Source: Candidatus Portnoybacteria bacterium (GTDB taxonomy: Bacteria > Patescibacteriota > Minisyncoccia > Portnoybacterales > GWB1-42-6). Taken from it: a DNA stretch of 64,000 bases. The stretch covers positions 67 through 64,066 of the forward strand of contig JACQXN010000006.1 of NCBI GenBank assembly GCA_016208745.1, read 5' to 3'. The position numbers and the translations under genes were made by a program. The notes below the pieces were generated by a model, which did not search any database, had not been told where the DNA came from, and was given only the letters and a program-made list of their open reading frames with translations. Every line of letters starts with the position of its first letter. Positions within the stretch are counted from its first letter, which is position 1. This document shows, one piece after another, positions 5,524-31,299 of this stretch.

Positions 5524-5699
5524 GTTTTTACCCTTGCATGGTGAAAGTTTTATTAGAAAATCGCGGCGAGTGAAGCGTTAAAAAATTGCCGAGCGAGCCA
5601 CCCCAATGTAATCATTGGGGCGAGTGCGAGTTTACGAGGCAATTTTAGCTTAAGTGAGCCCGATTTTCTTAAAACTTTCGCCCTGCAAGTAATCTTTTG

Positions 5700-5727
5700 G
5701 TTACTTTTCTGTTAGCAGAAAAGTAAC
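5700..5727 (-). terminator. 12-bp stem hairpin gttacttttctg/cagaaaagtaac immediately after the rodZ-like stop
   Basis: Perfect hairpin, but the trailing T-run is weak. Confidence 0.35.
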
Positions 5728-5736
5728 GTAAAAAGG

Positions 5737-6369
5737 TTATTTCACCATAATCTGCCTTAAAATTTCGCTCTTTTTCCCAAATCTATTCTCTGCTTCAAAT
5801 TTTAAAGTATTCATCCCGAGACTTAAATTAATTTCCTGTCTGAACTTTCCATCTTTATCAATATAAACTTGCTCGCCATTAACTGTCAATTTGGCCGAGG
5901 AGTCGGTTTGCCCGGAAATTTCTATTGACGAACGGCTGGTAGTTAAATCTTCGCTAGGATAATCCAGATTAATTTTTGGCGGCGCAACAATATAATCAAT
6001 CTGATAAACAAGGTATCCAATAATTAAAACAATTAAAATAGCGATTATCCCAAAACTAATTGTCCTAGGCGTAATAACAAGTTTCGGTGATTTTAAAATC
6101 GGCAATTCCTTTAATTTTCTTTGCCTTAGAATTTTATTCCCATTCAACTCCTCTTTATATTGAGCTAGTGTCTCTTCTGTTGGCAAGTTTAAAATCTTAA
6201 TATATTTTTTCAAAAAAGCCTGCATATAAACAGGTGCAGGCAATTTTTCATATTCGCTTTTTTCCAAGCGATCTAAATATTTAACCTGGATTTTGGAAAG
6301 TTCCGCTGCTTTTTCTAAACTCAAACCAGCCTCCTCTCTTGCTTTTTTAAGTCGTTCAGCTAAAGTCAT
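5737..6369 (-). CDS. RodZ-like cytoskeleton protein (N-terminal XRE-type HTH, one TM helix, C-terminal periplasmic domain)
   Basis: HTH resembling LSLEKAAELSKIQVKYLDRLE, a central hydrophobic helix, RodZ-type domain order. Confidence 0.6.
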   Translation of the reverse strand: MTLAERLKKAREEAGLSLEKAAELSKIQVKYLDRLEKSEYEKLPAPVYMQAFLKKYIKILNLPTEETLAQYKEELNGNKILRQRKLKELPILKSPKLVITPRTISFGIIAILIVLIIGYLVYQIDYIVAPPKINLDYPSEDLTTSRSSIEISGQTDSSAKLTVNGEQVYIDKDGKFRQEINLSLGMNTLKFEAENRFGKKSEILRQIMVK

Positions 6370-9625: not shown

Positions 9626-12600
9626 CTATTTTTTCTCTTCCTGTTCCGCCTCTTCTCTCCTATAACCCGTTCCCGCTGGAATTAATTTCCCGATAATCAC
9701 GTTCTCTTTCAAGCCCCGCAAGCGGTCTTTTTTACCAGCAATTGCTGCGCCGATTAAAACGCGGGCTGTTTCTTGAAACGAAGCAGATGAAAGCCAACTT
9801 TCAGTGGTTAAGGAAACTTTACTAATTCCCATCAGTAATTGGTAAGCAGTAGCTGGCTTGCTTTTTTCAGCCTTTACTCTATCGTTTTCCAATAAAAACT
9901 CGCTTTTTTCAACAATATCGCCAGAGGAAAATTGCGTGTCGCCAACATCCTTAATTCTTAAACGGGAAAACATCTGCTTAATAATAATTTCCAGATGCTT
10001 ATCGTTAATTCCTTCGCCCTGCGAGGTATAAATATTTTGCACTTCTCTTAAAATATAACGATGAACCGCCTCCTTGCCAGCTAAACGATAAAGCTCCTTT
10101 AAATCAAGGTGGCCTTCGCATAATTGCTGGCCTTTAGTTACCAAATCACCCTGCTTAACCCAGAGCCCTTGATTAAGCGCCACCGTATAATTTTTTATCT
10201 CTTCTTTGGAGACTGGTTTCTTTTTTGAGCCAGACGCTTTTTCTTTAATTTGGCCGCTGATTTTAACTATGCGCTGATTTTCTTTGTCCTCGATCTCCAC
10301 TACTTGTCCGTCCAATTCAGAGACTAATCCTTTGCCTCTTGGCGGACGACATTCAAAAATTTCTTCAACGCGCGGCAAACCTTGAGTAATATCTCCGCCG
10401 CCAGCTACGCCGCCTGTATGAAAAGTTCTCATAGTTAACTGAGTGCCCGGCTCGCCGATTGCCTGCGCCGTAACAATTCCGACCGCTTCTCCCAGTTTTA
10501 CTAATTGATTATTACCCAAATCATAACCATAACACATCTGGCAAACGCCATGACGCGATTGACAGGTAATAACAGAGCGGACTTTTATTTTTTCTAACCC
10601 CGCCTCATCAATCTTTTTGGCCGTCTGTTTATCAATCAAAGCGCCTTTTTTGGCAATAATCTCATTTCTAACTTTAATATCTTCCAAATTTACCCGGCCA
10701 ATGACTCTTGAGGCTAAAGAATGACCCATGCCAATACCGTCTTCTTTATAAATATAAATTCCTTCTTTGCTATGGCAGTCTGCTTCCCTAATAACAATAT
10801 CCTGCGCCACATCAACCAAGCGCCTCGTTAAATAACCGGCCGAAGAGGTTCTCAAAGCTGTATCAGCTGTTCCTTTTCGGGCGCCGTGAGTGGCAATAAA
10901 GAATTCCAAAACATTAAATCCTTCTTTAAAAGAGCTCTTAATAGGTAGCTCAATAATATCGCCGGCTGGGTTAATCACCAATCCCTTCATACCTGTCATC
11001 TGCGATATCTGCCCCCAAGAACCGCGGGAACCAGAAGCCACCATAGCCATAACAGGACCATTTGGATCAAGGCATTTAACCACTAATTTTGAAATTTTAT
11101 CAATGACGCTAAACCAGGTTTCAATGATTCTAGCCCGTCTTTCTTCGCGGGTTAAAAGCCCTTCCAAATATTGATGGTGGATTGTTTCAACGTCTTTTTC
11201 TGCCTTTTCTATTATCTCTGCTTTTTCAGGCGGGACTATAAGATCATCCATTCCCCAAGAGATCCCTGAACGGGTGGCAAATTCAAACCCGATTTCTTTT
11301 ATTTTATCTAAAATAGCCGCGGCTTTTTTAATTCCGCATTTTTCAATGATTTCGCTGATTAAAGCCAGCAAGGTTTTTTTATCTAATTCCTTGTTGATAA
11401 AAGAAATTTCTTGTGGCAAATACTGATTAACAATTATTCTACCAACGCATGTTTCGGTTAACCCCTTTTTCTCTTCAACGTTTATACTGGAAGATAAGAT
11501 TTTAATTTTTGCCTGCAAATCTATATCATCAAATTCATAAGCCAAAATCGCCTCTTGGGGATTGGCAAAATTTTTATTTTCTCCTTTTTTGCCTTCTTTG
11601 ATTTTAGTCATCCAGAAGCAACCCAAAATCATATCCTGAGTCGGAATAGCAATTGGATCGCCAGTAGCCGGCTTTAATAAATTATTGGCCGAAAGCATAA
11701 TTTTGCCCGCTTCGTTTTGCGCTTCCTGAGTTAAAGGCAAATGAACAGCCATTTGATCGCCATCAAAATCCGCGTTAAAAGCGCGGCAGACAACCGGATG
11801 AATTTGAATAGCGCTACCTTCAATCAAAATCGGTTTGAAAGCCTGGATGCCCAAACGATGAAGGGTCGGAGCGCGATTGAGCAAGACATATCTATCCTGA
11901 ATTACTTCTTCCAAAATTGCCCAAGCCTCATCGGTTTCCTGTTCAATTAAACGGCCGGCGCCTCTGATATTGTGAGCCAATTCTCTTTCCACTAATTTCT
12001 GAATAACAAATGGTTTGAATAATTCCAAAGCCATATGTTTTGGCAAGCCGCATTGATAAAGTTTAAGCTCCGGGCCGACCACAATAACCGAACGGCCTGA
12101 ATAATCAACTCTTTTGCCCAAAAGATTCTGTCTGAATCTTCCTTGTTTGCCTTTTAACATGTCGGCCAGAGATTTAAGCTGGCGCTTCTGGCCCGTGGCC
12201 GCCATAACCGGGCCTTGCCCGCGCCGAGCAGAATTATCAATCAAAGCGTCAACTGCCTCCTGCAACATTCTTTTTTCATTACGGCAAATAACTTCTGGCG
12301 CATTTAATTCTATTAATCTTTTCAAACGATTGTTTCTATTAATAACACGGCGATATAAATCATTTAAATCAGACGTGGCGTAACGGCCGCCGTCTAGCGC
12401 CACCATTGGCCGCAAATCAGGCGGCAAAACCGGCAAAATAGTCACAATCATCCATTCGGGCCTCAGCTTTTCTTTTATCATTCCTTCTATCAAGCTTAAT
12501 CTTTTCATTGCCCGGCGCTTGGCCACATCAGATAATTTATCAATCTGATTTTTAATTTCTTCTTTCAAAACGCCTAAATCAATTTCTGTAAGGATTTTTC

Positions 12601-13279
12601 TCACCGCTTCAGCGCCAATGCCAACCTCAAAAACCTGAGCATATTTCATACTCAATTCAAAATAGTCGTTTTCTGAAAGAATCTGCAATTTATGCAAACC
12701 CCTTAAGTCAGCCACGCCTTTATCCCGCGATTCCTTAATTTTTTGCTTTTCTCCCGGGGTTTGAGCGGTTTTTGTTTTCTGCTTATATTCTTGGTCTATT
12801 TCTTTCAATGTTCTTTCTCTGGAAGCTTCATCAACTTTTGTCACAATGTAGCTCGCAAAATAAATGACTTTTTCCAAATCTTGAACAGACAAATCTAAAA
12901 CTAGTCCTATTCTTGAAGGAACGCCGCGTAGAAACCAAATATGAGAAACCGGGGTAGCTAAACCAATATGCCCCATTCGCTCGCGCCTGACAATTGAACG
13001 AGTTACTTCCACGCCGCATTTATCACAAATGATTCCTTTATATCTTATTCTTTTATATTTTCCGCAATAACATTCCCAGTCTTTTTCCGGACCAAAAATC
13101 CGTTCGCAAAACAGGCCGTCTTTTTCCGGTTTTTGTGTTCTGTAATTTATAGTCTCTGGTTTTAAAACTTCGCCATGCGACCATCTCAAAATCTCTTCGG
13201 GCGAAGCCAAAAACAGCTTTATTGCCTGAAAGTCAGAAACCTTTACGCTCATAAAATTTGGATTGGTCTTGTTGTCCAT
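9626..13279 (-). CDS. rpoC: DNA-directed RNA polymerase subunit beta'
   Basis: NADFDGDQM catalytic motif, zinc-binding Cys clusters, 1217 aa. Confidence 0.97.
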   Translation of the reverse strand: MDNKTNPNFMSVKVSDFQAIKLFLASPEEILRWSHGEVLKPETINYRTQKPEKDGLFCERIFGPEKDWECYCGKYKRIRYKGIICDKCGVEVTRSIVRRERMGHIGLATPVSHIWFLRGVPSRIGLVLDLSVQDLEKVIYFASYIVTKVDEASRERTLKEIDQEYKQKTKTAQTPGEKQKIKESRDKGVADLRGLHKLQILSENDYFELSMKYAQVFEVGIGAEAVRKILTEIDLGVLKEEIKNQIDKLSDVAKRRAMKRLSLIEGMIKEKLRPEWMIVTILPVLPPDLRPMVALDGGRYATSDLNDLYRRVINRNNRLKRLIELNAPEVICRNEKRMLQEAVDALIDNSARRGQGPVMAATGQKRQLKSLADMLKGKQGRFRQNLLGKRVDYSGRSVIVVGPELKLYQCGLPKHMALELFKPFVIQKLVERELAHNIRGAGRLIEQETDEAWAILEEVIQDRYVLLNRAPTLHRLGIQAFKPILIEGSAIQIHPVVCRAFNADFDGDQMAVHLPLTQEAQNEAGKIMLSANNLLKPATGDPIAIPTQDMILGCFWMTKIKEGKKGENKNFANPQEAILAYEFDDIDLQAKIKILSSSINVEEKKGLTETCVGRIIVNQYLPQEISFINKELDKKTLLALISEIIEKCGIKKAAAILDKIKEIGFEFATRSGISWGMDDLIVPPEKAEIIEKAEKDVETIHHQYLEGLLTREERRARIIETWFSVIDKISKLVVKCLDPNGPVMAMVASGSRGSWGQISQMTGMKGLVINPAGDIIELPIKSSFKEGFNVLEFFIATHGARKGTADTALRTSSAGYLTRRLVDVAQDIVIREADCHSKEGIYIYKEDGIGMGHSLASRVIGRVNLEDIKVRNEIIAKKGALIDKQTAKKIDEAGLEKIKVRSVITCQSRHGVCQMCYGYDLGNNQLVKLGEAVGIVTAQAIGEPGTQLTMRTFHTGGVAGGGDITQGLPRVEEIFECRPPRGKGLVSELDGQVVEIEDKENQRIVKISGQIKEKASGSKKKPVSKEEIKNYTVALNQGLWVKQGDLVTKGQQLCEGHLDLKELYRLAGKEAVHRYILREVQNIYTSQGEGINDKHLEIIIKQMFSRLRIKDVGDTQFSSGDIVEKSEFLLENDRVKAEKSKPATAYQLLMGISKVSLTTESWLSSASFQETARVLIGAAIAGKKDRLRGLKENVIIGKLIPAGTGYRREEAEQEEKK

Positions 13280-13482
13280 AACTAATTAAAATAGAGTCAA
13301 TTTAAATTTCTTTATCTTGCATCGAAAAATTTTGTAAGAAAATTGATATGAGCGAGGCGTAAAAAATTGGCGACGGAGGAGTGAAGCGACGAGTTTAGGA
13401 GCTAATTTTTAGATGAGCGAATCCCTGCCTGGCGGCAGACAGGCAATTTTCTCAAAATTTTATACCTGGAAGCAGTTCTTTC

Positions 13483-13512
13483 TGCCACTTTCTTGCTACC
13501 AAGAAAGTGGCA
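13483..13512 (-). promoter_or_regulatory. 13-bp perfect stem hairpin (tgccactttcttg/caagaaagtggca) just after the true rpoB stop, inside an unusually long (~250 bp) rpoB-rpoC spacer
   Basis: Perfect inverted repeat with no T-run; possibly an attenuator or RNase III processing site. Confidence 0.4.
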
Positions 13513-13530
13513 ATAAAATTATATATCTTT

Positions 13531-16500
13531 TTATCCTTTCTCCCCGCCATATCCCTCATTATCTTCTTCTCTTTCTCTTTTGGCGCCGATTAAATCAACG
13601 CCCAAACCAAGAGCTTTTAATTCTGCCACTAAAACATTAAAAGAAGCGGGGATATTTGGCGCTTTAATTGTCTGGCCGCGAATAATCGCGTCAAAAGCCC
13701 GCCAAACTGGGCTTTGCCGCCCAATGGCTGTTGAGTAATTAAAGAATATGGCCCGATAGAACGCATATGGATTTTGTCTTCAACTAGATGATGAAGCTTC
13801 ATCATATAAATATATCCAACCGTCACTTTCTGCTTGAATGGTTCGCCTGTCTGGCTATCAAAAATTGTTACTTTCCCGTCTTCAGGCAAGCCAGCTTTTA
13901 TTAATTGCTCCTTAATTTCTGTTTCTGTCGCGCCATCAAGCGCCGGAGTTATCGCTCTAAATCCTAATTTATGCCCAGCCCAGCCAAGATGTGTTTCAAG
14001 AATCTGCCCAATATTCATACGGGAGGCCACGCCTAAAGGATTTAAAATAATATCAACTGGAGTGCCGTCTTCCAGATAAGGCATTTCTTCAACCGGCAAA
14101 ACCTTAGAAACAACGCCTTTATTGCCGTGACGGCCGGCGAATTTATCGCCGACCATAACTTTTCTTAATTGAGCAACTTCCACCTGAATGGTTTTTATAA
14201 CACCCGCTTTCAATTTGTCTCCTTTTTCTCTTGAAAAAATCTTAATGCCGACAATCCGGCCGCGCTTTCCATGAGGCAGACGCAATGAAGTATCTTTAAC
14301 ATCTCGCGCTTTTTCGCCAAAAATCGCCCTTAATAATCTTTCTTCAGCTGTTAAATCAGCCTCTCCTTTAGGAGAAATTTTGCCAACCAAAATATCGTTG
14401 GGGCCGACTTCAGCGCCGATTCTAACAATCCCTTCTTCGTCTAAATCCTTTAATCGCTCTTCGCCGACATTAGGAATATCGGGCGTCGTGATTTCCGGCC
14501 CAAGCTTAGTTTCTCTAACATCGCAATAAAAATCTTCAATGTGAATTGAGGTAAAACGGTCGTCTCTAACGACTTTTTCAGAAATTACAATTGCGTCTTC
14601 AAAGTTGCTGCCTCGCCAAGGAATAAAAGCCACCAAGAGATTTTGGCCCAAAGCCATATAGCCATTATCCGTGGCTGCGCCGTCGGCAATCGCCTCACCC
14701 TTTTTAATAATTTGGCCCAGCCCAACTAAAGGGTGCTGGTTAATGCAAGAGAATTGGTTAGTCCGCATAAAATTGCGTAGATTATAGCGGACGATTTTCC
14801 GTTTTCCAGTTTTTGAATCCTTGTTATCAGTTTCAATTTCAATGTGGCTAGCATCAACGCCGATAACTTTACCATTTTCCTGAGAAACTAAAATCTGGCC
14901 GGAATCAAGGGCGGCTTTTTTCTCTGTGCCCGTGGCCACCAATGGAGCTTGCGGCACAACACAAGAAACAGCTTGGCGTTGCATGTTTGAGCCCATCAAA
15001 GCACGATTAGCATCGTCGTTTTCCAAAAATGGGATTAAAGAAGTAGCTATAGAAATACATTGTTGAGGAGAAACATCCATAAAATCAATCTTTTCCCGCT
15101 TGGTAATTGAGGCCTGCCCCTTAACCCTGGCTTCAACTCTTGGCTCAGTCAATCGTCCGTCTTTGTCCACCGGCACGCCAGCGTGAGCAATATCGTGTTT
15201 CTGTTCCTGAAAAGCATCTATAAAAACAATCTCATTTGTTACTTTGCCATCTTTGACTCTACGATAGGGAGTTTCTAAAAATCCAAATTCGTTTAATCTG
15301 GCGTATGTTGTCAAATTGCCCACCAGACCAATATTTGGACCTTCAGGAGTTTGAATCGGACAGATTCTGCCATAATAAGTTGAGTGAACATCACGTACTT
15401 CAAAGCCAGCTCTTTCTCTGGTTAAGCCGCCCGGACCCATTGTGGAGAGCCTTCGTTTATGCTCAAGCTCTGCCAATGGATTTATCTGGTCCATAAACTG
15501 CGAAAGCTGGGAAGTGGTAAAAAATTCTTTGACTGCCGCCATAAAGGGGCGGGCATTGATCAATTGAGCAGGCGTTAAAGTAGTGATATCTAAAGTAGTC
15601 ATACGATCCCTGATAATTCTCTCCATTCTATCTAGACCAACCCTCAACTTATTCTGCAAAAGTTCTCCGATATTTCTTAAACGGCGGTTAGCTAAATGAT
15701 CAATATCATCAGGTTGGGCGTCAGAATCATTATTCAATTTGATAATTTCTTTAATTACCGCGACTAGATCCTCTATCCTTAAAATTCTAAGCTCTCTTGT
15801 CGTAGGCGTCTCCAAGCCAAGCCTTTGGTTGAATTTCCAACGGCCGACTTTTGCTAAATCATAGCGTTCAAAGTTAAAAAACATCGCCTCAATCATTTGC
15901 TGGGCATTATCAACGGTTGCCAAATCACCCGGCCTCAATCGTTTATAAACTTCAATAAATCCTTCGCCCTTGTTTTTGGCTTGGTCTTTTTTAATTGTCG
16001 CTTCAATATATTTATTGTCAGGATCTTTATCAACATCCTTGAAAGTTTTCAATAACTCCTCGTCTGTTTCTATGCCAAAAGCCCGAAGCAAAGATGTAAC
16101 GGGCACCTTTCTTTTGCGGTCAATTTTAACGCCAATAGAATTATCTAGATCGGTTTCAAATTCCAGCCACGCTCCGCGATTGGGAATAATTTTTGCTCCA
16201 AAAAGCCTGCGGCCGCGATGCTCCTGCATAGTAAAAAATACCCCAGAAGACCTTATCAACTGGGAAATAATAACCCGCTCGACACCATTAACAATAAACG
16301 TACCGCGGGCTGTCATCAAAGGAAACTCACCAAGATAGATCTCTTGTTCCTTGACCTCGCCGCTATTTTTATTGACCAGACGTACCTTTCCTCTAAGGGG
16401 CGCTTCAAAAGAAGCGTTTTGAGCTTTAGCTGCTACCTCGTCGTACTTTGGCTCATCTAAATAATAATCAACAAAATAAAGTTCAAGCTCTTTGCCAGAC

Positions 16501-16640
16501 CAGTCTCTGACTGGAGAAAATTCTTCAAATAATTCCTTTAAGCCCCGAGACATAAACCAATTATAAGAGTTGAGCTGAAGCTCAATTAAATTTGGCAAAG
16601 GAATGGCTGATGGATGTTTACCGAAAAATTTTTCCTGCAT
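13531..16640 (-). CDS. rpoB: DNA-directed RNA polymerase subunit beta. The reading frame is disrupted near 13698 and the ORF as read stops at 13629. The conserved C-terminus (RAFDAIIRGQTIKAPNIPASFNVL...) continues in another frame to the stop at 13531.
   Basis: N-terminus and core motifs up to GGKAQFGG are intact. About 33 universally conserved residues (QRFGEMEVWALEAYGAA...KSDD) are missing and the frame is shifted. Confidence 0.9.
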
Positions 16641-19297: not shown

Positions 19298-19420
19298 GCG
19301 CACTTACGGGGACTACCTACTTTCTCTGGAAAACCAGATATCATCGGCCTTGGCATATTTCACTTCTGTGTTCGGAATGGGAACAGGTGGGACAATGCCA
19401 GTATAATCCCCATAAGTACG
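19298..19420 (-). rRNA. rrf: 5S ribosomal RNA
   Basis: CCACCTGTTCCCATTCCGAACACAGAAGTGAAA core; the 5' and 3' ends pair with each other. Confidence 0.88.
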
Positions 19421-19560: not shown

Positions 19561-20520
19561 GGCAAAAATTTAGACAGATGGATGATTTATTAGTACTCCT
19601 TGGCTTAACGCATTACTGCGCTTACACCTAGAGCCTATCAACCTTGTAATCTTCAAGGAATCTACGATACCTAATCTTGGGGTCTGCTTCGCGCTTATAT
19701 GCTTTCAGCGCTTATCAGATCCATACATAGCTACTCAGCAGTGCACCGGGCGGTGCAGCTGATACACCAGAGGTATGTTCTTCTCGGTCCTCTCGTACTA
19801 GAGAAGACTCCCCTCAAGTATCCACGCCTGCAGCAGATAGAGACCAACCTGTCTCACGACGGTTTGAACCCAGCTCACGTACCTCTTTAATTGGCGAACA
19901 GCCAAACCCTTGGGGCCTTCTTCAGTCCCAGGATGAGATGAGCCGACATCGAGGTGCCGAACAGTATCGTCGATATGGACTCTTGGATACTACCAGCCTG
20001 TTATCCCCGGAGTAGCTTTTAGCCGATGATCTTCCACCTTCCTATGAAGTATGGTCGGTTCACTAAGTTCCGCTTTCGCGACTGCGCGACATGTCCGTCT
20101 TGCAGTAAAGCCAGCTTATGCCTTTACGCGTCAGGGCCGATTTCCATCCGGCCCAAGCTGACCTTGATAAACGCCTCCGTTACTCTTTTGGAGGCTAGCG
20201 CCCCACTAAAACTGCCCACCAGGCACTGTTCCCGTCCCGTTTTGCGAGACAGGTTAGAACAAAGTTTTTTAAAGATGGGTGTTTCATTGGCGGATCCATG
20301 CAGGCCGAAACCTACACTTCAAATCCTACCCACTACGCTACGCATTAAAAAACAAGGCTCAATACCAAGCTGCAGTAAAGCTTCCGGGGTCTTTTCGTCT
20401 AGCTGCAGGTACCCGGCATCTTTACCGGAATTGCATTTTCACCGAGCTCCTCGTTGAGACAGTCCCCAAGTCGTTACGCTTTTCATGCGCGTCAGAACTT
20501 ACCTGACAAGGAATTTCGCT

Positions 20521-21373
20521 CAAATGTGTTATTCTGCCCTCGACTTTAGTCAGGGCAACTCTATATATCGCTATATAGTTCGGACTATATCTTCTCCGTG
20601 ATTTGCGGAGTTTGGCGTATAGTCTCTGGGGATTCTAAAAACTTGGATGGTTTGCACCGGTTAATTTTTTCCATTAAACCGGCGATCTTTTTCATTCCTC
20701 TGTACTTAAAATGTCTTTGAGAAATCATCATTTTGACGATCTTCGCGAACACTTTAAAATCTTTTTCTTTGGCGGTTTTGAGATTATTCTTTTCAAAAAA
20801 TGGAATAATCTTTGCATTCAAATCCGAAATGGATCTAACGCAATAACGAAAAAGGGGTTCTTTATGGTTGTCGTGGCGGCGGTTGATAAATATTTTTCCG
20901 CACTCAAAGAAATTTTGAATCATTTTTAATGAATTCAAACTTTTTTCTCCTTGAGTAACTACAAACTCCGGAAAAACTTGCCAACCAAATTTTGTTCTCG
21001 CGTTACGAATCATCGTAACGGAAAAACATCCTTCACCGTCAACATAACCAACTATCCATCCGATTGTTTTTAGCCTTTCCTGCGGATTGTCTGGCGCCTC
21101 TTCCTTAAAGGGCACACTGGTAGATTTTTTACTTGGCATAATGTTTCATTTGTTATGGTAACATTATACCATAGTATCTCCAGATACTCCAGATTTTCCC
21201 GTCCCGCAAGCCTTCCCTTATTGTGAAATTGTCACAATAACGTGACTTACGGATTCCCGAAATTGCATTTTTCCTTCGCAACCATACGGCTGCGGGATTG
21301 CGATTTGTTTCCAATCGCTTCGATCTTGGACAAATCGGGAACATATAGCCAAATTTTACTAAAGCAGTTTCCT
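20521..21373 (-). mobile_element. group I intron in the 23S gene at the position equivalent to E. coli U1931 (5' exon ends ..AAAGT, the intron ends in G, the 3' exon begins AGCGAAATTCC)
   Basis: Exon junction deduced by comparison with the conserved helix 69-71 sequence; the intron carries a homing-endonuclease ORF. Confidence 0.75.
20585..21139 (-). CDS. LAGLIDADG homing endonuclease (single-motif type) encoded in the intron
   Basis: GWIVGYVDGEGCF motif in a 184-aa ORF that lies within the 23S gene. Confidence 0.85.
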   Translation of the reverse strand: MPSKKSTSVPFKEEAPDNPQERLKTIGWIVGYVDGEGCFSVTMIRNARTKFGWQVFPEFVVTQGEKSLNSLKMIQNFFECGKIFINRRHDNHKEPLFRYCVRSISDLNAKIIPFFEKNNLKTAKEKDFKVFAKIVKMMISQRHFKYRGMKKIAGLMEKINRCKPSKFLESPETIRQTPQITEKI

Positions 21374-23583
21374 ACTTTAACACGATTATAGTTATCGCGG
21401 ACGTTCACTGGCGCTTAGCACAGTGAGCCTAGACGCACATCACCACATTCAGGCTAAACTTATAGTTTTACTCTTTATTGATTGGCGAAATTGCCGTCAT
21501 ATTAAAGAGCTTGCTTAATCTTTGAAGATTAAAAAGAAAAACTACAAATCTGCACTGAACGCAGTAAAGTGCGCCCAGACCCCCATGTTTAACGTTCCAG
21601 CACTGGTCAAGCGTCAGCCCCTATACTTCCTCTTGCGAGTTTGCAGGGACCTGTGTTTTTGGTAAACAGTCGCTTGGGGTCTTTAGCTGCGGCCCAATCG
21701 CATCGCGCTATGCACGACGCATAAATTTAAAATGTAAAAATCGAAAGTCAAAATTTAAGTGTCGCTTTGTGACAAATTATAATAAATTCGCCGCAGGCGA
21801 ATACCAAAATTTTACATTTTGCCCGCCCCGCTTCGCTTGGCGAGGCCGGGGATATTTTAATTTTGCATTTAGCGTCACACGCAGTGTGATGCGATCAGGC
21901 AGGTCATATTGCGAACTTACGACACGTTGTTTTGCCGAGTTCCTTAACGAGGACTCACTCGTTCGCCTGAGGCTACTCGCCTCGCCCACCTGTGTCGGTT
22001 TTCAGTACGGTTCCCTTATTTTTGACTCTAGAAGTTTTTCTTGGCAGCTCCTTCGTCCGAATTACCCCGCCTTCTAAGCCCGTCACCAAGATCTATAGAA
22101 CAAACTATTTTTTACCTCAAAAAAATAATGTCCTATAATCTGGTCATGAGCATAGAGGGCGGGGCTTTTCTCAATTTCGGAAATTATTCTGCCGGATTTG
22201 CCTGACAGACATTCCAAAACCAAGAATGATAATCCAATAAATCACTCAGACTTTTAAACTGCGTCACTCCGTTGAAAAAATAAGGAAGTGCAGGAATATT
22301 AACCTGCTGTCCATTATCCGAGCATCTCTGCTCTAGACTTAGGACCGACTAACCCTTGGATGATAATCATTGCCAAGGAAACCTTAGGCTTGCGGCGGTC
22401 CGGTCTTTCACCGGACTTGTGGTTACTTATTCCAACATTCTCTCTTCCTAACGCTCCAGCGAACCTCACGATTCGCCTTCACAGCAGTTAGAAATGCTCC
22501 CCTACCGCCTCGCGCTCCGCACGAAGAAATCCTAAATTAAAAATTCTAAATCCGAAACAAATTCCAAATTAAAATTTCCAAATCATAAAACGAAAATTTA
22601 ATTTAATTCTTGAATTTTGATCATTTGAATTTGTTTAGAGTTTGGGATTTAGTGCTAGAATTTCCTTGTGCGAAGCACAAGACCCATATCTTCGGTACTA
22701 AGCTTAGCCCCGATAAATCTTCGGTGCAAAATCTCTAGATTAGTGAGCTGTTACGCACTCTTTAAAGGATGGCTGCCTCTAAGCCAACCTCCTAACTGTT
22801 AGAGAAACTTCACCGCCTTGTTGACACTTAGCTTAGTTTAGGGACCTTAGATGATGATCTGGGCTGTTTCCCTTTTGACTATGGAGCTTCGCCCCCACAG
22901 TCTGACTCTGATGATAAAAATCTCGGCATTCGGAGTTTGATTAGGTCCGGTAGGAAAAATCCATCCAAACCCATTCAGTGCTCTACCTCCAAGACACAAA
23001 CATCAGGCTAGCCCAAAAGCTATTTCGGGGAGAACCAGCTATTACCAAGCTCGATTAGCTTTTCACTTCTTACCACAGCTCATCCCCCAGTGTTGCACGG
23101 CTGGTGGGTTCGGGCCTCCCCCTGATTTTACTCAGGGTTCACCCTGGCCATGGCAAGCTCGCCTTGGCTTCGGGTCTTAAATGTGCTGCATATTCACAGA
23201 TCGCAAATAGCTCGTCAGGCGCAGCCCGATAAGCGATTCGCAATAAGTGAAAGTCGCGCTATTAACACTTGGTTTCCCTATATCTCCGTCCCGAAGGACT
23301 TAGAAAAAGCAACACATATAAACTCGTTGGATCGTTCTGCAAAAAGCACACGGTCACCCACACGCATCTCGCTACTCGAGATGCTAAATTAAAAGTTTAA
23401 AGTTAAAATTTAAAAGTTATTGAGTGAAAAATTTTGAGACAAAATTTTTCACGAATTCCTAAATTTTTAACTTTTCATTTTTCATTTTTAACTTAGCGCA
23501 TCTTGCCCAGCAAGATGCGCGCAGGCTCCCATTCATTGTAAGTATATGGTTTCAGGGACTATTTCATCGCCCTCATCGGGCTG

Positions 23584-23622
<39 letters not shown>

Positions 23623-23918
23623 GATATTGAGTATTTAGCCTTGGCACAATAGTCGTGCCGGATTCCGACAAGGTAGTCTTGGCCTCGCCGTACTTAAGAA
23701 CAATAACTAGGAGCATAAAACCGTTTTCGCTTACGGGGCTATTACCCTCTTTGGCACCGGTTTTCCATCCGGTTTCTGCTAACGAAGCCTTATAATTTGA
23801 TCTCCCTCTGGAACCTAATCAACAAGTCCAAGAAGTTTACCCTGAGCTTGTCGAAGGGCTCCAGAACGTTATTACCTTACAACACCCATACACCGCACAT
23901 CGCTGAGCTCTGTGCGTG

Positions 23919-24056
23919 AAATGTCTAATTTCTAATTATTCTAATTTCTAAGCAAATCCCAAATTTTTAAATATCCAATAATAAAAAGTAGTATTTTGTC
24001 ATTGGAAATTGGAAATTCATTAGATTAATTAGACTAATTAGGTCAATTAGAAATTT
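23919..24056. repeat. 138-bp AT-rich palindromic element (arms AATTTCTAATT...ACCTAATT / AATTAGGT..AATTAGAAATT) inserted at a 23S domain I helix tip
   Basis: Same family as 24154-24247, 50463-50597 and 51001-51138; complementary flanking rRNA sequences close the helix. Confidence 0.6.
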
Positions 24057-24153
24057 CGCACGAAACGCAGTGAAGTGCGGTAGATGGGTTTAGGCTCTTC
24101 CCTTTTCGCTCGCCGCTACTGGGGGAATGAGCGGTCTCGCAATCGCTCGCCGC

Positions 24154-24247
24154 AATGTCTAATTTCTAATCCCTAATTTATCTAATCCAGTCCCGCAGGG
24201 CGGGACATTTTTAGAATAATTAGGTTAATTACGAATAATTAGAAATT
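24154..24247. repeat. 94-bp AT-rich palindromic element of the same family inside 23S, with a central gtcccgc/gcgggac hairpin
   Basis: Arm sequences shared with the other family members. The flanking rRNA motif GCGGCGAGCGA is duplicated across the element, consistent with a closing helix. Confidence 0.6.
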
Positions 24248-24327
24248 GCGCGTATCGAACGATAGTGAGATCGCCTTATTTTCTTTTCCTCCGCTTACTA
24301 GAATGTTTTACTTCAGCGGGTTAACTC

Positions 24328-24618
24328 CTGCTCAGATTTTTGGAGGGGATCATATTTATAGACGATCCCCCTAATAAATTAACATGCCCTAAGGCCTGTA
24401 TCATTGTATGTGACCAGGGCCACAAATGTCTCGCCAACGATAGCCAATGCGGTCGAAAGAACTTCGGGTTGTTCTTTTTTTTCCCATTGATTAATCTCTT
24501 CTCTTAATCGTACCATTGCACCCAAAGCATTCTCTGGCGGAACTCTTTCCACAACAAATTCCATTACCATACTATGTCCTCCTTTTTCAGAATTATTTAC
24601 TCCAAAAATCTGAGCAGG
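24328..24618 (-). other. intervening sequence of about 290 nt near the 23S 5' end, closed by a 19-bp inverted repeat (CCTGCTCAGATTTTTGGAG / CTCCAAAAATCTGAGCAGG) and containing a protein-coding ORF
   Basis: The insertion lies between conserved 23S segments (..GGGGAAACCC.. and ..GAAGTAAAACAT..), and the stem is a perfect 19 bp. Confidence 0.65.
24379..24570 (-). CDS. 63-aa hypothetical protein encoded inside the 23S intervening sequence (MVMEFVVERVPPENALGAMVRLREEINQWEKKEQPEVLSTALAIVGETFVALVTYNDTGLRAC)
   Basis: AAAGGAGG lies 7 nt upstream of the ATG. The longer track ORF 24379..24669 would read through conserved rRNA. Confidence 0.5.
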   Translation of the reverse strand: MVMEFVVERVPPENALGAMVRLREEINQWEKKEQPEVLSTALAIVGETFVALVTYNDTGLRAC

Positions 24619-24948
24619 TATACCGATTTTATCGGTATGGGTTTCCCCATTCGGATATCCCCGGATCAAAGCTTGCTAGACAGCTCCCCGAGGCTTAACG
24701 CAGTCACGCCACGTCCTTCATCGCCTCAATATCCCTAGGCATCCACCATACACCCTTAGCCATCTGTCTAAATTTTTGCCCCCAAGCCAAAGCTTGGGAT
24801 TGCCACGCTAAGCGCGGCCTAGATGACTAATAATTAAGTAACCATTAACGTTATCTGATTCTCTAATTTCACCCCGTCCCACAATACATTTGTGGCGGGG
24901 TTCTTTTATACCTGCTATATTCAATTTTCAAGTTGCTATCATTTTTCA

Positions 24949-30010: not shown

Positions 30011-31069
30011 TTACAGCGCCACAATCTCTTCCCAAGGCAACCCCTCTTTGCCAAAATGTCCATAAGCAGCGGTTTGGCGGTAAATCGGCCGGCGGAGATT
30101 CAATCGTTCAATAATCGCCTGCGGCCGGAAATCAAAATTCTTATTCACTATTTCATCAATGCTCTCCCCTTTTTCATTAATCGCCTCAACCATTAAAGGT
30201 TCAACGCGGCCGATGGCATAAGCCACTGAAACTAAACATTTTTTAGCTAGGCCATTAGCCACAATATTTTTGGCGGCAAAACGAGCCATATAAGCGGCTG
30301 ATCGATCAACTTTTGTCGGATCTTTCCCAGAAAAAGCGCCGCCGCCATGCGGAATTAAACCGCCATAAGTATCAACCATAATCTTTCTGCCGGTTAAGCC
30401 GGTGTCAGCCTCAAACCCGCCCTGCACGAATTTGCCGGTTGGATTAACTAATATTTCGGCGCCATTGTAATCTTCTTCGTCAAAAGCCGATTTAATTACT
30501 TTTTCAATAATTTCTCTTTTTATATCATCTTGCGAAACCGAATCGCTATGCTGACAGCTAACTAGAATTTTTTCTGTGCCGTGGCTGTTAATAGTTACCT
30601 GCGATTTACCATCTGGAAAAAGCCAGGTGGCTTGGCCACTTCTCCTTAATTTTTCTAAACCTTGCGCCAGTTTATGCGCCATAACAACTCCTTTGGGCAA
30701 AAATTGAGAAGTTTCATCTGTCGCATAACCATACATAATGCCTTGATCTCCGGCGCCACCCGTATCAACTCCCTGCGCAATGTCGGGCGATTGCTGGACA
30801 ACATTAGTAATAACTTTTAACTCGTTCTGATGGCCGATATCGCGATAAACCTGTCGGCCAAGATTGGCAAAATCAACTTGCGCGTTAGTTGTCAGCTCGC
30901 CGCAAATAACTAATATCCCGTGTCCGCCAAAACTTTCAATGGCAACTCTGCTTTTTGGGTCTTGCCTTAAACATTCGTCTAAAACAGCATCCGAAATCTG
31001 ATCGCAGATTTTATCCGGATGCCCCGAGGTAACGCTTTCAACTGTATACATCTTTGTGCTGTATGTCAT
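30011..31069 (-). CDS. metK: S-adenosylmethionine synthetase
   Basis: GHPDKICDQISDA, GAGDQGIMYGYA and GGGAFSGKDPTKVDRS motifs; the true start may be the internal MYTVESV. Confidence 0.95.
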   Translation of the reverse strand: MTYSTKMYTVESVTSGHPDKICDQISDAVLDECLRQDPKSRVAIESFGGHGILVICGELTTNAQVDFANLGRQVYRDIGHQNELKVITNVVQQSPDIAQGVDTGGAGDQGIMYGYATDETSQFLPKGVVMAHKLAQGLEKLRRSGQATWLFPDGKSQVTINSHGTEKILVSCQHSDSVSQDDIKREIIEKVIKSAFDEEDYNGAEILVNPTGKFVQGGFEADTGLTGRKIMVDTYGGLIPHGGGAFSGKDPTKVDRSAAYMARFAAKNIVANGLAKKCLVSVAYAIGRVEPLMVEAINEKGESIDEIVNKNFDFRPQAIIERLNLRRPIYRQTAAYGHFGKEGLPWEEIVAL

Positions 31070-31154: not shown

Positions 31155-31292
31155 AAATCTTTCCACGCGGAAAGATTTCTCTAAAATTATCTTTCCCCCG
31201 TGGGGCTAGAGTTGGCACCTCTCCTTCAATTATTTGAAGAAGGTTGTCGGCAGGTCATAGGGCTAGTTCCCTCGCTACACTCTGTAATAATT
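31155..31292 (-). promoter_or_regulatory. SAM-I (S-box) riboswitch with an intrinsic terminator, in the metK leader
   Basis: Minus-strand sequence ..TTATTACAGAG..GCGAGGGAACTAGCCCTATGACCTGCCGACAACC..GGTGCCAACTCTAGCC..AGATAA matches the S-box consensus. It is followed by the hairpin aaatctttcc-gcgt-ggaaagattt and a T-run. Confidence 0.7.
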
Positions 31293-31299
31293 ATTTTAT

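What the first reader, a model, noticed from the sequence alone, without database searches (positions are those of the whole stretch)
13531..13720. rpoB reading frame broken by an apparent ~100-nt deletion that removes the universally conserved [17 protein letters not shown]...KSDD segment
The rpoB ORF reads correctly through ...GGKAQFGG. The next encoded residues, RAFDAIIRGQTIKAPNIPASFNVLVAELKALG..., are in a different frame. They correspond to the region after the missing ~33-residue segment, which contributes to the switch-3 and RNA-exit region. The ORF as read terminates at 13629 with a nonsense tail, while the true C-terminus runs to 13531. RpoB is essential and single-copy, so this is either an assembly or sequencing artefact or a dead allele. 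Either way it matters for interpreting the contig.
Basis: seen in the sequence. Interest (0 to 1): 0.55.

Follow-up and report, generated by a model that had tools for sequence, protein, structure and literature searches.

The report
Artefactual 109-base deletion in rpoB
The RNA polymerase beta-subunit gene in this draft genome of an uncultivated groundwater bacterium lacks 109 bases, but an independent assembly of the same population contains them, so the break is almost certainly an assembly error and not biology.

Summary
rpoB (minus strand, start 16640) reads correctly for 981 codons to ...PLGGKAQFGG (13700-13698). It then runs into a 22-codon nonsense tail with a stop at 13631-13629. The true C-terminus (AFDAIIRGQ...GEKG, stop 13533-13531) continues in the -1 frame. 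Compared with relatives, exactly 109 nt are missing: 36 codons ([36 protein letters not shown]) plus 1 nt. All 78 relatives that could be read through this point keep the segment.

The window matches an NCBI MAG, Candidatus Portnoybacteria, locus tags HY764_, contig 88,793 nt. This is probably NC_groundwater_1516_Pr4_B-0.1um_40_5, whose bin name I read as about 5x coverage. A Logan assembly of run SRR12113404 gives a contig (L091) that is 5691/5692 identical upstream and 143/143 identical downstream, and it carries the 109 nt in frame.

The stranded C-terminal codons still show strong purifying selection (pN about 0.1, pS about 0.8). Twenty-three other genes checked in the window look intact. 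Locus-tag and accession numbering imply that NCBI already treats rpoB as a pseudogene.

Verdict: a local misassembly in a low-coverage MAG. The organism has a normal rpoB. Low interest.

The parts
13698..16640 (-). rpoB 5' part: 981 intact codons, ATG at 16640 to the GGG (Gly) codon at 13700-13698
   Evidence: Pfam Rpb2_1, _2, _3, _45 and _6, all with full profile coverage. 87% identical to the best homologues. 5691/5692 nt identical to L091.
13697..13698 (-). Deletion junction. The dinucleotide GC (minus strand) is present at both ends of the missing 109 nt, so the breakpoint is ambiguous by 2 nt.
   Evidence: Alignments. Blastn coordinates: L091 1-5692 = window 19388-13697, and L091 5800-5942 = window 13698-13556.
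13629..13697 (-). Out-of-frame nonsense tail of the called ORF (LLTRLFAARQLKRQISPLLLMF, stop TAG at 13631-13629). It is the true C-terminal coding sequence read in the wrong frame.
13531..13698 (-). True rpoB 3' part in the -1 frame: AFDAIIRGQTIKAPNIPASFNVLVAELKALGLGVDLIGAKREREEDNEGYGGEKG plus stop TAA at 13533-13531. This is the remnant of Pfam Rpb2_7.
   Evidence: dN/dS (pN 0.09-0.12 against pS 0.81-0.88 versus L001 and L085). 143/143 identical to L091 over 13556-13698.
13483..13512 (.). Perfect 13-bp inverted repeat with a 4-nt loop in the rpoB-rpoC spacer. Context only; function not tested.
   Evidence: I2.
9626..13279 (-). rpoC immediately downstream, intact. NCBI calls it from the ATG at 13252 (1208 aa, MBI4708753.1).
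   Evidence: 84% identical to L001 over the first 400 aa, the same nearest relative as for rpoB.

Best explanation
This is a local assembly or scaffolding error in the deposited contig of a low-coverage metagenome-assembled genome. The contig lost 109 nt from inside rpoB. The left and right sequences were joined at a 2-nt coincidence (GC), which removed 36 universally conserved codons plus one base and pushed the last 55 codons out of frame. The living population has a normal, full-length rpoB of about 1072 codons. Shown: the deletion itself; an intact allele with identical flanks in an independent assembly; and no decay on either side of the break. Inferred: that the error arose during MEGAHIT assembly or IDBA-UD scaffolding at about 5x coverage, and which MAG this is.
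For: (1) The Logan assembly of run SRR12113404 gives contig L091 (5942 nt). It matches window 19388-13697 at 5691/5692 and window 13698-13556 at 143/143. Between these it holds 109 extra nt encoding [36 protein letters not shown] in frame.
(2) All 78 relatives that could be read through this point keep the segment, and the closest relatives show the same clean 109-nt gap.
(3) There is no decay. The 981 upstream codons are intact. The stranded downstream codons have pN 0.09-0.12 against pS 0.81-0.88 versus L001 and L085, similar to the upstream part (pN 0.07-0.09, pS 0.69). The break is therefore evolutionarily instantaneous.
(4) Both flanks have the same nearest relatives (L001, then L085), so this is not a chimera between lineages.
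(5) The lesion is isolated. Of 23 other ORFs scanned against Pfam, 19 matched a family and all but the DUF5671 protein covered the profile essentially end to end; rpoC is also intact.
(6) Provenance. Window proteins are exact matches to NCBI Candidatus Portnoybacteria proteins MBI4708749-MBI4708799, on a contig of 88,793 nt. A Portnoybacteria MAG of PRJNA640378 fits the window's 39.3% GC and its position next to RBG_19FT_COMBO_36_7. It is named ..._40_5, meaning GC 40% and about 5x coverage by the ggKbase naming convention (my own knowledge). That study used 150-bp reads, MEGAHIT, then IDBA-UD scaffolding (PMC7906910).
(7) Locus tags HY764_00930 and HY764_00950 leave room for three genes between them, but only two protein accessions exist (753 rpoC, 754 rodA). 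The 1003-aa product is not in the collection. This implies NCBI annotated rpoB as a pseudogene.
Against: No reads could be mapped. The evidence for the intact allele is one contig from one run. L091 differs from the window by one SNP (C/T at window 16302). The run whose contig is 100% identical to the window (SRR12113406, L093) stops at 16074, before the junction. The intact allele is therefore shown for a sister haplotype and not strictly for the MAG's own haplotype. That the SRR runs belong to the MAG's site, and the identity of the MAG itself, are inferred and not shown. The exact step that produced a gap-free 109-nt loss with only 2 nt of overlap is not identified.
Confidence: 0.88

Rival explanations
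1. The deletion is a real allele in part of the population. The haplotype carrying T at 16302 would carry a true 109-nt deletion, sampled from dead or dying cells or from relic DNA.
For: The intact contig L091 carries C at 16302, while the window and L093 carry T. The junction has a 2-nt microhomology, which is compatible with a real end-joining or slippage event.
Against: The deleted residues are invariant or nearly so in the 78 relatives read, and they match bacterial, archaeal and eukaryotic polymerases in the PDB. Loss of this segment plus the frameshifted C-terminus should be lethal (established knowledge of RNA polymerase). A lethal allele cannot dominate a population enough to become the assembled consensus. 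No decay is visible on either side. L091 runs through both breakpoints without the contig breaking.
Confidence: 0.07
2. This is a pseudogene copy of rpoB, and a second intact rpoB lies elsewhere in the genome.
For: Only 64 kb of the genome is visible, so a second copy outside the window cannot be excluded directly.
Against: The locus has the conserved rodA-rpoB-rpoC synteny of the relatives. The intact allele in L091 sits in this same context, with identical flanks for 5.7 kb. There is no second rpoB in the window and no relaxed selection.
Confidence: 0.02
3. The gene is expressed as it stands. A programmed -1 ribosomal frameshift at the junction yields a beta subunit that lacks 36 residues, or two separate polypeptides are made.
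For: The downstream frame is reachable by a -1 shift and is open from the junction to its stop.
Against: There is no X XXY YYZ slippery heptamer at CAGTTTGGCGGGCTTTTGAC (read). The downstream frame has no ATG, GTG or TTG before the GTG at 13629, so the conserved AFDAIIRGQ...SFNVL part has no independent start. The product would lack the first half of Rpb2_7. The intact allele exists in the same population.
Confidence: 0.005

Closest known systems
Local misassembly (collapsed or skipped segment) in short-read metagenome-assembled genomes
   Same: A clean internal loss with no N run in a low-coverage contig. It breaks a conserved single-copy gene. An independent assembly of the same population has the missing bases. 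The rest of the contig looks sound.
   Different: No repeat explains the collapse; only 2 nt are shared at the breakpoints. The responsible step (MEGAHIT graph simplification, the IDBA-UD scaffolding join, or curation) could not be identified.
Intact bacterial rpoB of Parcubacteria / Portnoybacteria (for example P0001, P0006, L001)
   Same: 87% amino-acid identity over 981 residues, the same domain order, and the same rodA-rpoB-rpoC neighbourhood. The repaired length would be about 1072 aa, against 1066-1071 aa in relatives.
   Different: The window copy lacks 109 nt, so it lacks a scorable Rpb2_7 domain.
Naturally split or fused RNA polymerase large-subunit genes (archaeal rpoB'/rpoB'', Helicobacter-type rpoB-rpoC fusion; from my own knowledge)
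   Same: The coding sequence falls into two reading frames or pieces. Some relatives fetched here do carry rpoB fused in frame to rpoC (L004, L026, L028, L041).
   Different: Natural splits keep every conserved residue and give each piece its own start. Here 36 conserved residues are absent and the 3' piece has no start codon.
Decaying pseudogene in a reduced symbiont genome
   Same: A frameshift and premature stop in a protein-coding gene. NCBI appears to flag it as a pseudogene (inferred).
   Different: There is one lesion only, strong purifying selection on both sides, the gene is essential, and an intact allele exists in the same population.

Membership tests
Bacterial RNA polymerase beta subunit (RpoB) | Pfam domains Rpb2_1, Rpb2_2, Rpb2_3, Rpb2_45 and Rpb2_6 in order | tested here: met
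   all five are found in the 1003-aa ORF, and Rpb2_6 is matched to profile position 373/373, ending at residue 978.
Bacterial RNA polymerase beta subunit (RpoB) | Complete C-terminal Rpb2_7 domain, including [12 protein letters not shown].YGA...KSDD | tested here: not met
   absent from the ORF. The -1 frame remnant matches only profile positions 54-84 of 87, at 18.4 bits against a cut-off of 32.1. The motif is present in 78/78 relatives read and in L091.
Assembly artefact | An independent assembly or reads from the same population carry the missing sequence between identical flanks | tested here: met
   L091 is 5691/5692 and 143/143 identical on the two sides, with the 109 nt in frame.
Assembly artefact | No or negligible read support for the deletion junction in the source sample | not testable with these tools
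   Reads cannot be mapped here. No Logan contig from SRR12113398 or SRR12113406 reaches the junction.
Decaying pseudogene | Relaxed selection (dN/dS near 1) and several disabling mutations | tested here: not met
   pN 0.07-0.12 against pS 0.69-0.88 on both sides of the break. There is a single lesion in about 3.2 kb.
Programmed -1 ribosomal frameshift site | Slippery heptamer X XXY YYZ at the shift point, and a product that keeps the conserved residues | tested here: not met
   The sequence CAG TTT GGC GGG CTT TTG has no such heptamer, and 36 conserved residues would be missing from the product.
Naturally split rpoB | Each piece has its own start codon, and together the pieces hold all conserved regions | tested here: not met
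   the first start codon in the downstream frame is the GTG at 13629, after the conserved part; the missing segment is nowhere in the window.

The most novel reading that the evidence does not exclude
The deletion is real in one haplotype of this episymbiotic Portnoybacteria population (the T-16302 haplotype). On this reading, cells or DNA with a dead rpoB were abundant enough in one filter sample to win the assembly. That could happen through a recent sweep of a lethal lesion in relic DNA, or through cells kept alive by polymerase from sister cells.
Probability: 0.04. Interest if true: 0.45.

Novelty: not a real feature. Interest (0 to 1): 0.07.

Why it matters
The finding matters only for data quality. 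The contig (probably WGS project JACQXN01, Candidatus Portnoybacteria NC_groundwater_1516_Pr4_B-0.1um_40_5) carries a 109-nt hole in an essential marker gene. rpoB from this MAG should not be used as it stands in phylogenies, in gene-content or pseudogene counts, or as evidence of genome decay in CPR bacteria. The missing bases can be restored from L091 positions 5691-5799. It also shows that a contig which otherwise looks clean at about 5x coverage can hide internal losses with no N run to warn the user.

Tried and rejected
(a) I searched for the missing segment elsewhere in the window, in case of a translocation or a trans-encoded piece. tblastn with the E. coli segment and a 15-mer search with the true 109 nt found nothing.
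(b) Exact look-ups of the window's RpoB (1003 aa) and RpoC (1217 aa) found nothing. RpoC is on record only with the start at 13252, and the look-up of encoding contigs returned no contig for it.
(c) The genome-contig scan returned 80 relatives but not the same species; the best was 89% amino-acid identity.
(d) The protein search gave at best 87% identity.
(e) The exact 27-mer scan of JGI metagenome contigs gave 9 loci, the best at 77.6% DNA identity, with no conspecific.
(f) Look-ups from the downstream side (DUF5680 gene) gave Logan contigs L094 and L095, which stop inside rpoC at 12284 and 11944. A look-up with rodA gave no further contigs. Only one contig therefore crosses the junction.
(g) I tested for a chimeric join between lineages and rejected it, because both flanks have the same nearest relatives.
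(h) I looked for a repeat-mediated collapse and rejected it: there are no repeats at the junction in the window and only 2 nt of microhomology in the intact sequence.
(i) I tested whether the whole assembly is error-prone (many frameshifts) and rejected this, because the other genes scanned have complete domains.
(j) P0067 looked like a second truncated rpoB at the same place. It proved to be an in-frame TGA in another organism, not a deletion.
(k) A search of the paper's supplements for the SRR run numbers found nothing, so the link between the runs and the MAG remains an inference.

Full report
**What is in the sequence**

The window carries rodA, rpoB and rpoC in that order on the minus strand.
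- rpoB starts at the ATG at 16640 and reads as a normal beta subunit for 981 codons.
- Pfam domains Rpb2_1, _2, _3, _45 and _6 are all present. Rpb2_6 is matched to its last profile position at residue 978.
- After ...PLGGKAQFGG (the GGG codon at 13700-13698) the frame gives 22 meaningless codons and a TAG at 13631-13629.
- The frame one base back reads AFDAIIRGQTIKAPNIPASFNVLVAELKALGLGVDLIGAKREREEDNEGYGGEKG, with its stop at 13533-13531. This is the normal end of RpoB.
- tblastn with the E. coli C-terminus hits both pieces in different frames and leaves query residues 32-66 unmatched.

**Size and position of the loss**

- DNA alignment with the nearest species representative (L001, Candidatus Portnoybacteria RBG_19FT_COMBO_36_7) shows one clean 109-nt gap between TTTGGCGG and GCTTTTGAC.
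- The nearest JGI metagenome contig (L085, 77.6% DNA identity) shows the same jump.
- 109 nt is 36 codons plus one base, which explains the -1 frame.
- Using the ungapped PDB match (query 1-115 = E. coli beta 1225-1339), the lost residues correspond to about beta 1268-1303.
- In Pfam terms the first half of Rpb2_7 is gone. The remnant matches only profile positions 54-84 and scores below the family cut-off.
- Of the 80 relatives fetched, 78 could be read through this point, and all 78 have [12 protein letters not shown].YG...KSDD..GR.. intact.
- The segment is not elsewhere in the window, and there is no second rpoB in the window.

**Is it old or new?**

The break shows no sign of age.
- Upstream, 300 codons compared with L001 and L085 give pN 0.07-0.09 against pS 0.69.
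- The 38 stranded downstream codons give pN 0.09-0.12 against pS 0.81-0.88.
- The out-of-frame piece has therefore been under purifying selection in its own frame for essentially the whole branch.
- There is no second lesion in 3.2 kb, so the break is evolutionarily instantaneous.
- Both flanks have the same nearest relatives: L001 at 82% and 84%, L085 at 78% and 78%. This rules out a join between different lineages.
- The junction region has no repeats and no slippery heptamer.
- The downstream frame has no start codon before the GTG at 13629. A split-gene or programmed-frameshift reading therefore has no support.

**Where the window comes from**

The source could be traced through exact protein look-ups.
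- Many window proteins are NCBI proteins of 'MAG: Candidatus Portnoybacteria bacterium', locus tags HY764_, on a contig of 88,793 nt. They also occur in Logan assemblies of SRA runs.
- Accessions run in gene order: FtsK MBI4708751, DUF5680 protein 752 (HY764_00930), RpoC 753, RodA 754, hypothetical 755 (HY764_00950).
- Locus tags step by 5, so three genes lie between 00930 and 00950, but only two have proteins.
- The 1003-aa product is not on record. I infer that NCBI annotated rpoB as a pseudogene.
- In the supplements of He et al. 2021 (PMC7906910), one Portnoybacteria MAG fits the window. It is SR1-18-Bp1_QB3_181220_Portnoybacteria_40_5 = NC_groundwater_1516_Pr4_B-0.1um_40_5, JACQXN000000000.
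- It fits because the window is 39.3% GC and because this MAG sits next to RBG_19FT_COMBO_36_7 in the paper's tree.
- The name encodes GC 40% and about 5x coverage. This naming convention is my own knowledge.
- The study used 150-bp paired reads and MEGAHIT, then IDBA-UD scaffolding.

**The decisive result**

- The neighbouring 274-aa protein led to three Logan contigs.
- L091 (run SRR12113404, contig 38839, 5942 nt) matches window 19388-13697 at 5691 of 5692 bases and window 13698-13556 at 143 of 143.
- Between those two matches it holds 109 extra bases: GCAGAGATTCGGTGAAATGGAAGTCTGGGCTTTGGAAGGTTATGGCGCCGCTTACACGCTTCAGGAAATGCTGACGATAAAATCAGATGATGTGGTCGGTCGCGCCAAT.
- These translate in frame as [36 protein letters not shown], followed by AFDAIIRGQ....
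- The two blast segments overlap by the dinucleotide GC, so the breakpoints share only 2 nt.
- The repaired gene would be about 1072 codons, against 1066-1071 in the closest homologues.

An independent assembly of reads from what is evidently the same population therefore has a normal rpoB.

**Limits**

- Only L091 crosses the junction.
- L092 (SRR12113398) ends at 14329 and L093 (SRR12113406) ends at 16074. L094 and L095, coming from downstream, end inside rpoC.
- L091 differs from the window by one SNP (16302 C/T). L093, which shares the window's T, does not reach the junction.
- I could not map reads, and I could not confirm which runs belong to the MAG's sample.
- A real deletion in the MAG's own haplotype is therefore not strictly excluded. 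It would be lethal, however, and could hardly become the consensus of an assembly.

**State of the rest of the window**

- I scanned 23 other ORFs against Pfam. Nineteen matched a family, and all but the DUF5671 protein covered the profile essentially end to end. Four short or uncharacterised ORFs had no match.
- The matched genes include ftsK, rodA, lysS, greA, a PBP2 gene, mreB/C/D, dnaX, the ABC transporter pair, the P-type ATPase and metK.
- rpoC is also intact.
- The contig is therefore not generally riddled with frameshifts, and this is a single local fault.

**Verdict**

It is not a biological feature of the organism. Interest is low. The practical consequence is to repair or mask rpoB in this MAG before using it.

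Noticed in passing
window 19570-24769 (-), with an ORF at 20585-21139 (-): The 23S rRNA gene spans 5.2 kb against a 2.9-kb Rfam model, so it holds about 2.3 kb of insertions. One insertion encodes a LAGLIDADG homing endonuclease (PF00961, E = 8.7e-24). Such rRNA insertions are typical of CPR bacteria (my own knowledge). Their number and boundaries were not mapped.
   Followed up: partly
window 19304-19414 (5S), 19570-24769 (23S); the rest of the window: 23S and 5S rRNA are adjacent, but Rfam finds no 16S rRNA anywhere in the 64 kb. That includes the 39 kb on the 5' side of the 23S gene. The 16S gene seems to be unlinked from 23S-5S.
   Followed up: partly
window 31184-31293 (-) and 30011-31069 (-): A SAM-I riboswitch (51.5 bits against a gathering score of 44.4) lies directly upstream of metK, the S-adenosylmethionine synthetase gene, which has all three Pfam domains.
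   Followed up: partly
L081 6929-6931 (ENA ERZ27250192, contig k141_1146429): Another Parcubacteria rpoB is cut in two by an in-frame TGA exactly at the Gly codon of QRF-G-EMEVW, where relatives have GGA. The gene caller made two genes of 976 aa and 82 aa. rodA and the rpoC fragment on the same contig are called without internal stops. This looks like a single G-to-T error or variant and not UGA=Gly recoding, but that was not tested further.
   Followed up: partly
L004, L026, L028, L041 (from about 6874 onward in L004, L028 and L041; about 4167 in L026): In four relatives, rpoB runs without a stop codon straight into rpoC (...NVEPVYDSPASRRDDFRALKISAASPEDILGWSHGEV...). This gives a fused rpoB-rpoC reading frame like the fusion known in Helicobacter (my own knowledge). 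These records are labelled 'Saccharibacteria', Paceibacteria or Patescibacteria MAGs.
   Followed up: no
window 19388, 16074, 14329, 13556, 12284, 11944: All three Logan contigs on the rodA side begin at the same base inside the 5S gene (19388). They end at different points in rpoB. No Logan contig found here covers window 12285-13555, which is the rpoB end, the spacer and the rpoC start. The region around the lesion is therefore hard to assemble in every run, consistent with low coverage.
   Followed up: partly
window 16302, 15231, 15219: Single-base differences between runs: T/C at 16302 (window and L093 against L091 and L092), and two more in L092. There are also 5 mismatches in L094. This shows closely related haplotypes of this population across the SRA runs.
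   Followed up: no
window 13483-13512: A perfect 13-bp inverted repeat with a 4-nt loop (TGCCACTTTCTTG / CAAGAAAGTGGCA) lies in the 250-nt rpoB-rpoC spacer. It could be an RNA hairpin between the two genes; its function was not tested.
   Followed up: no
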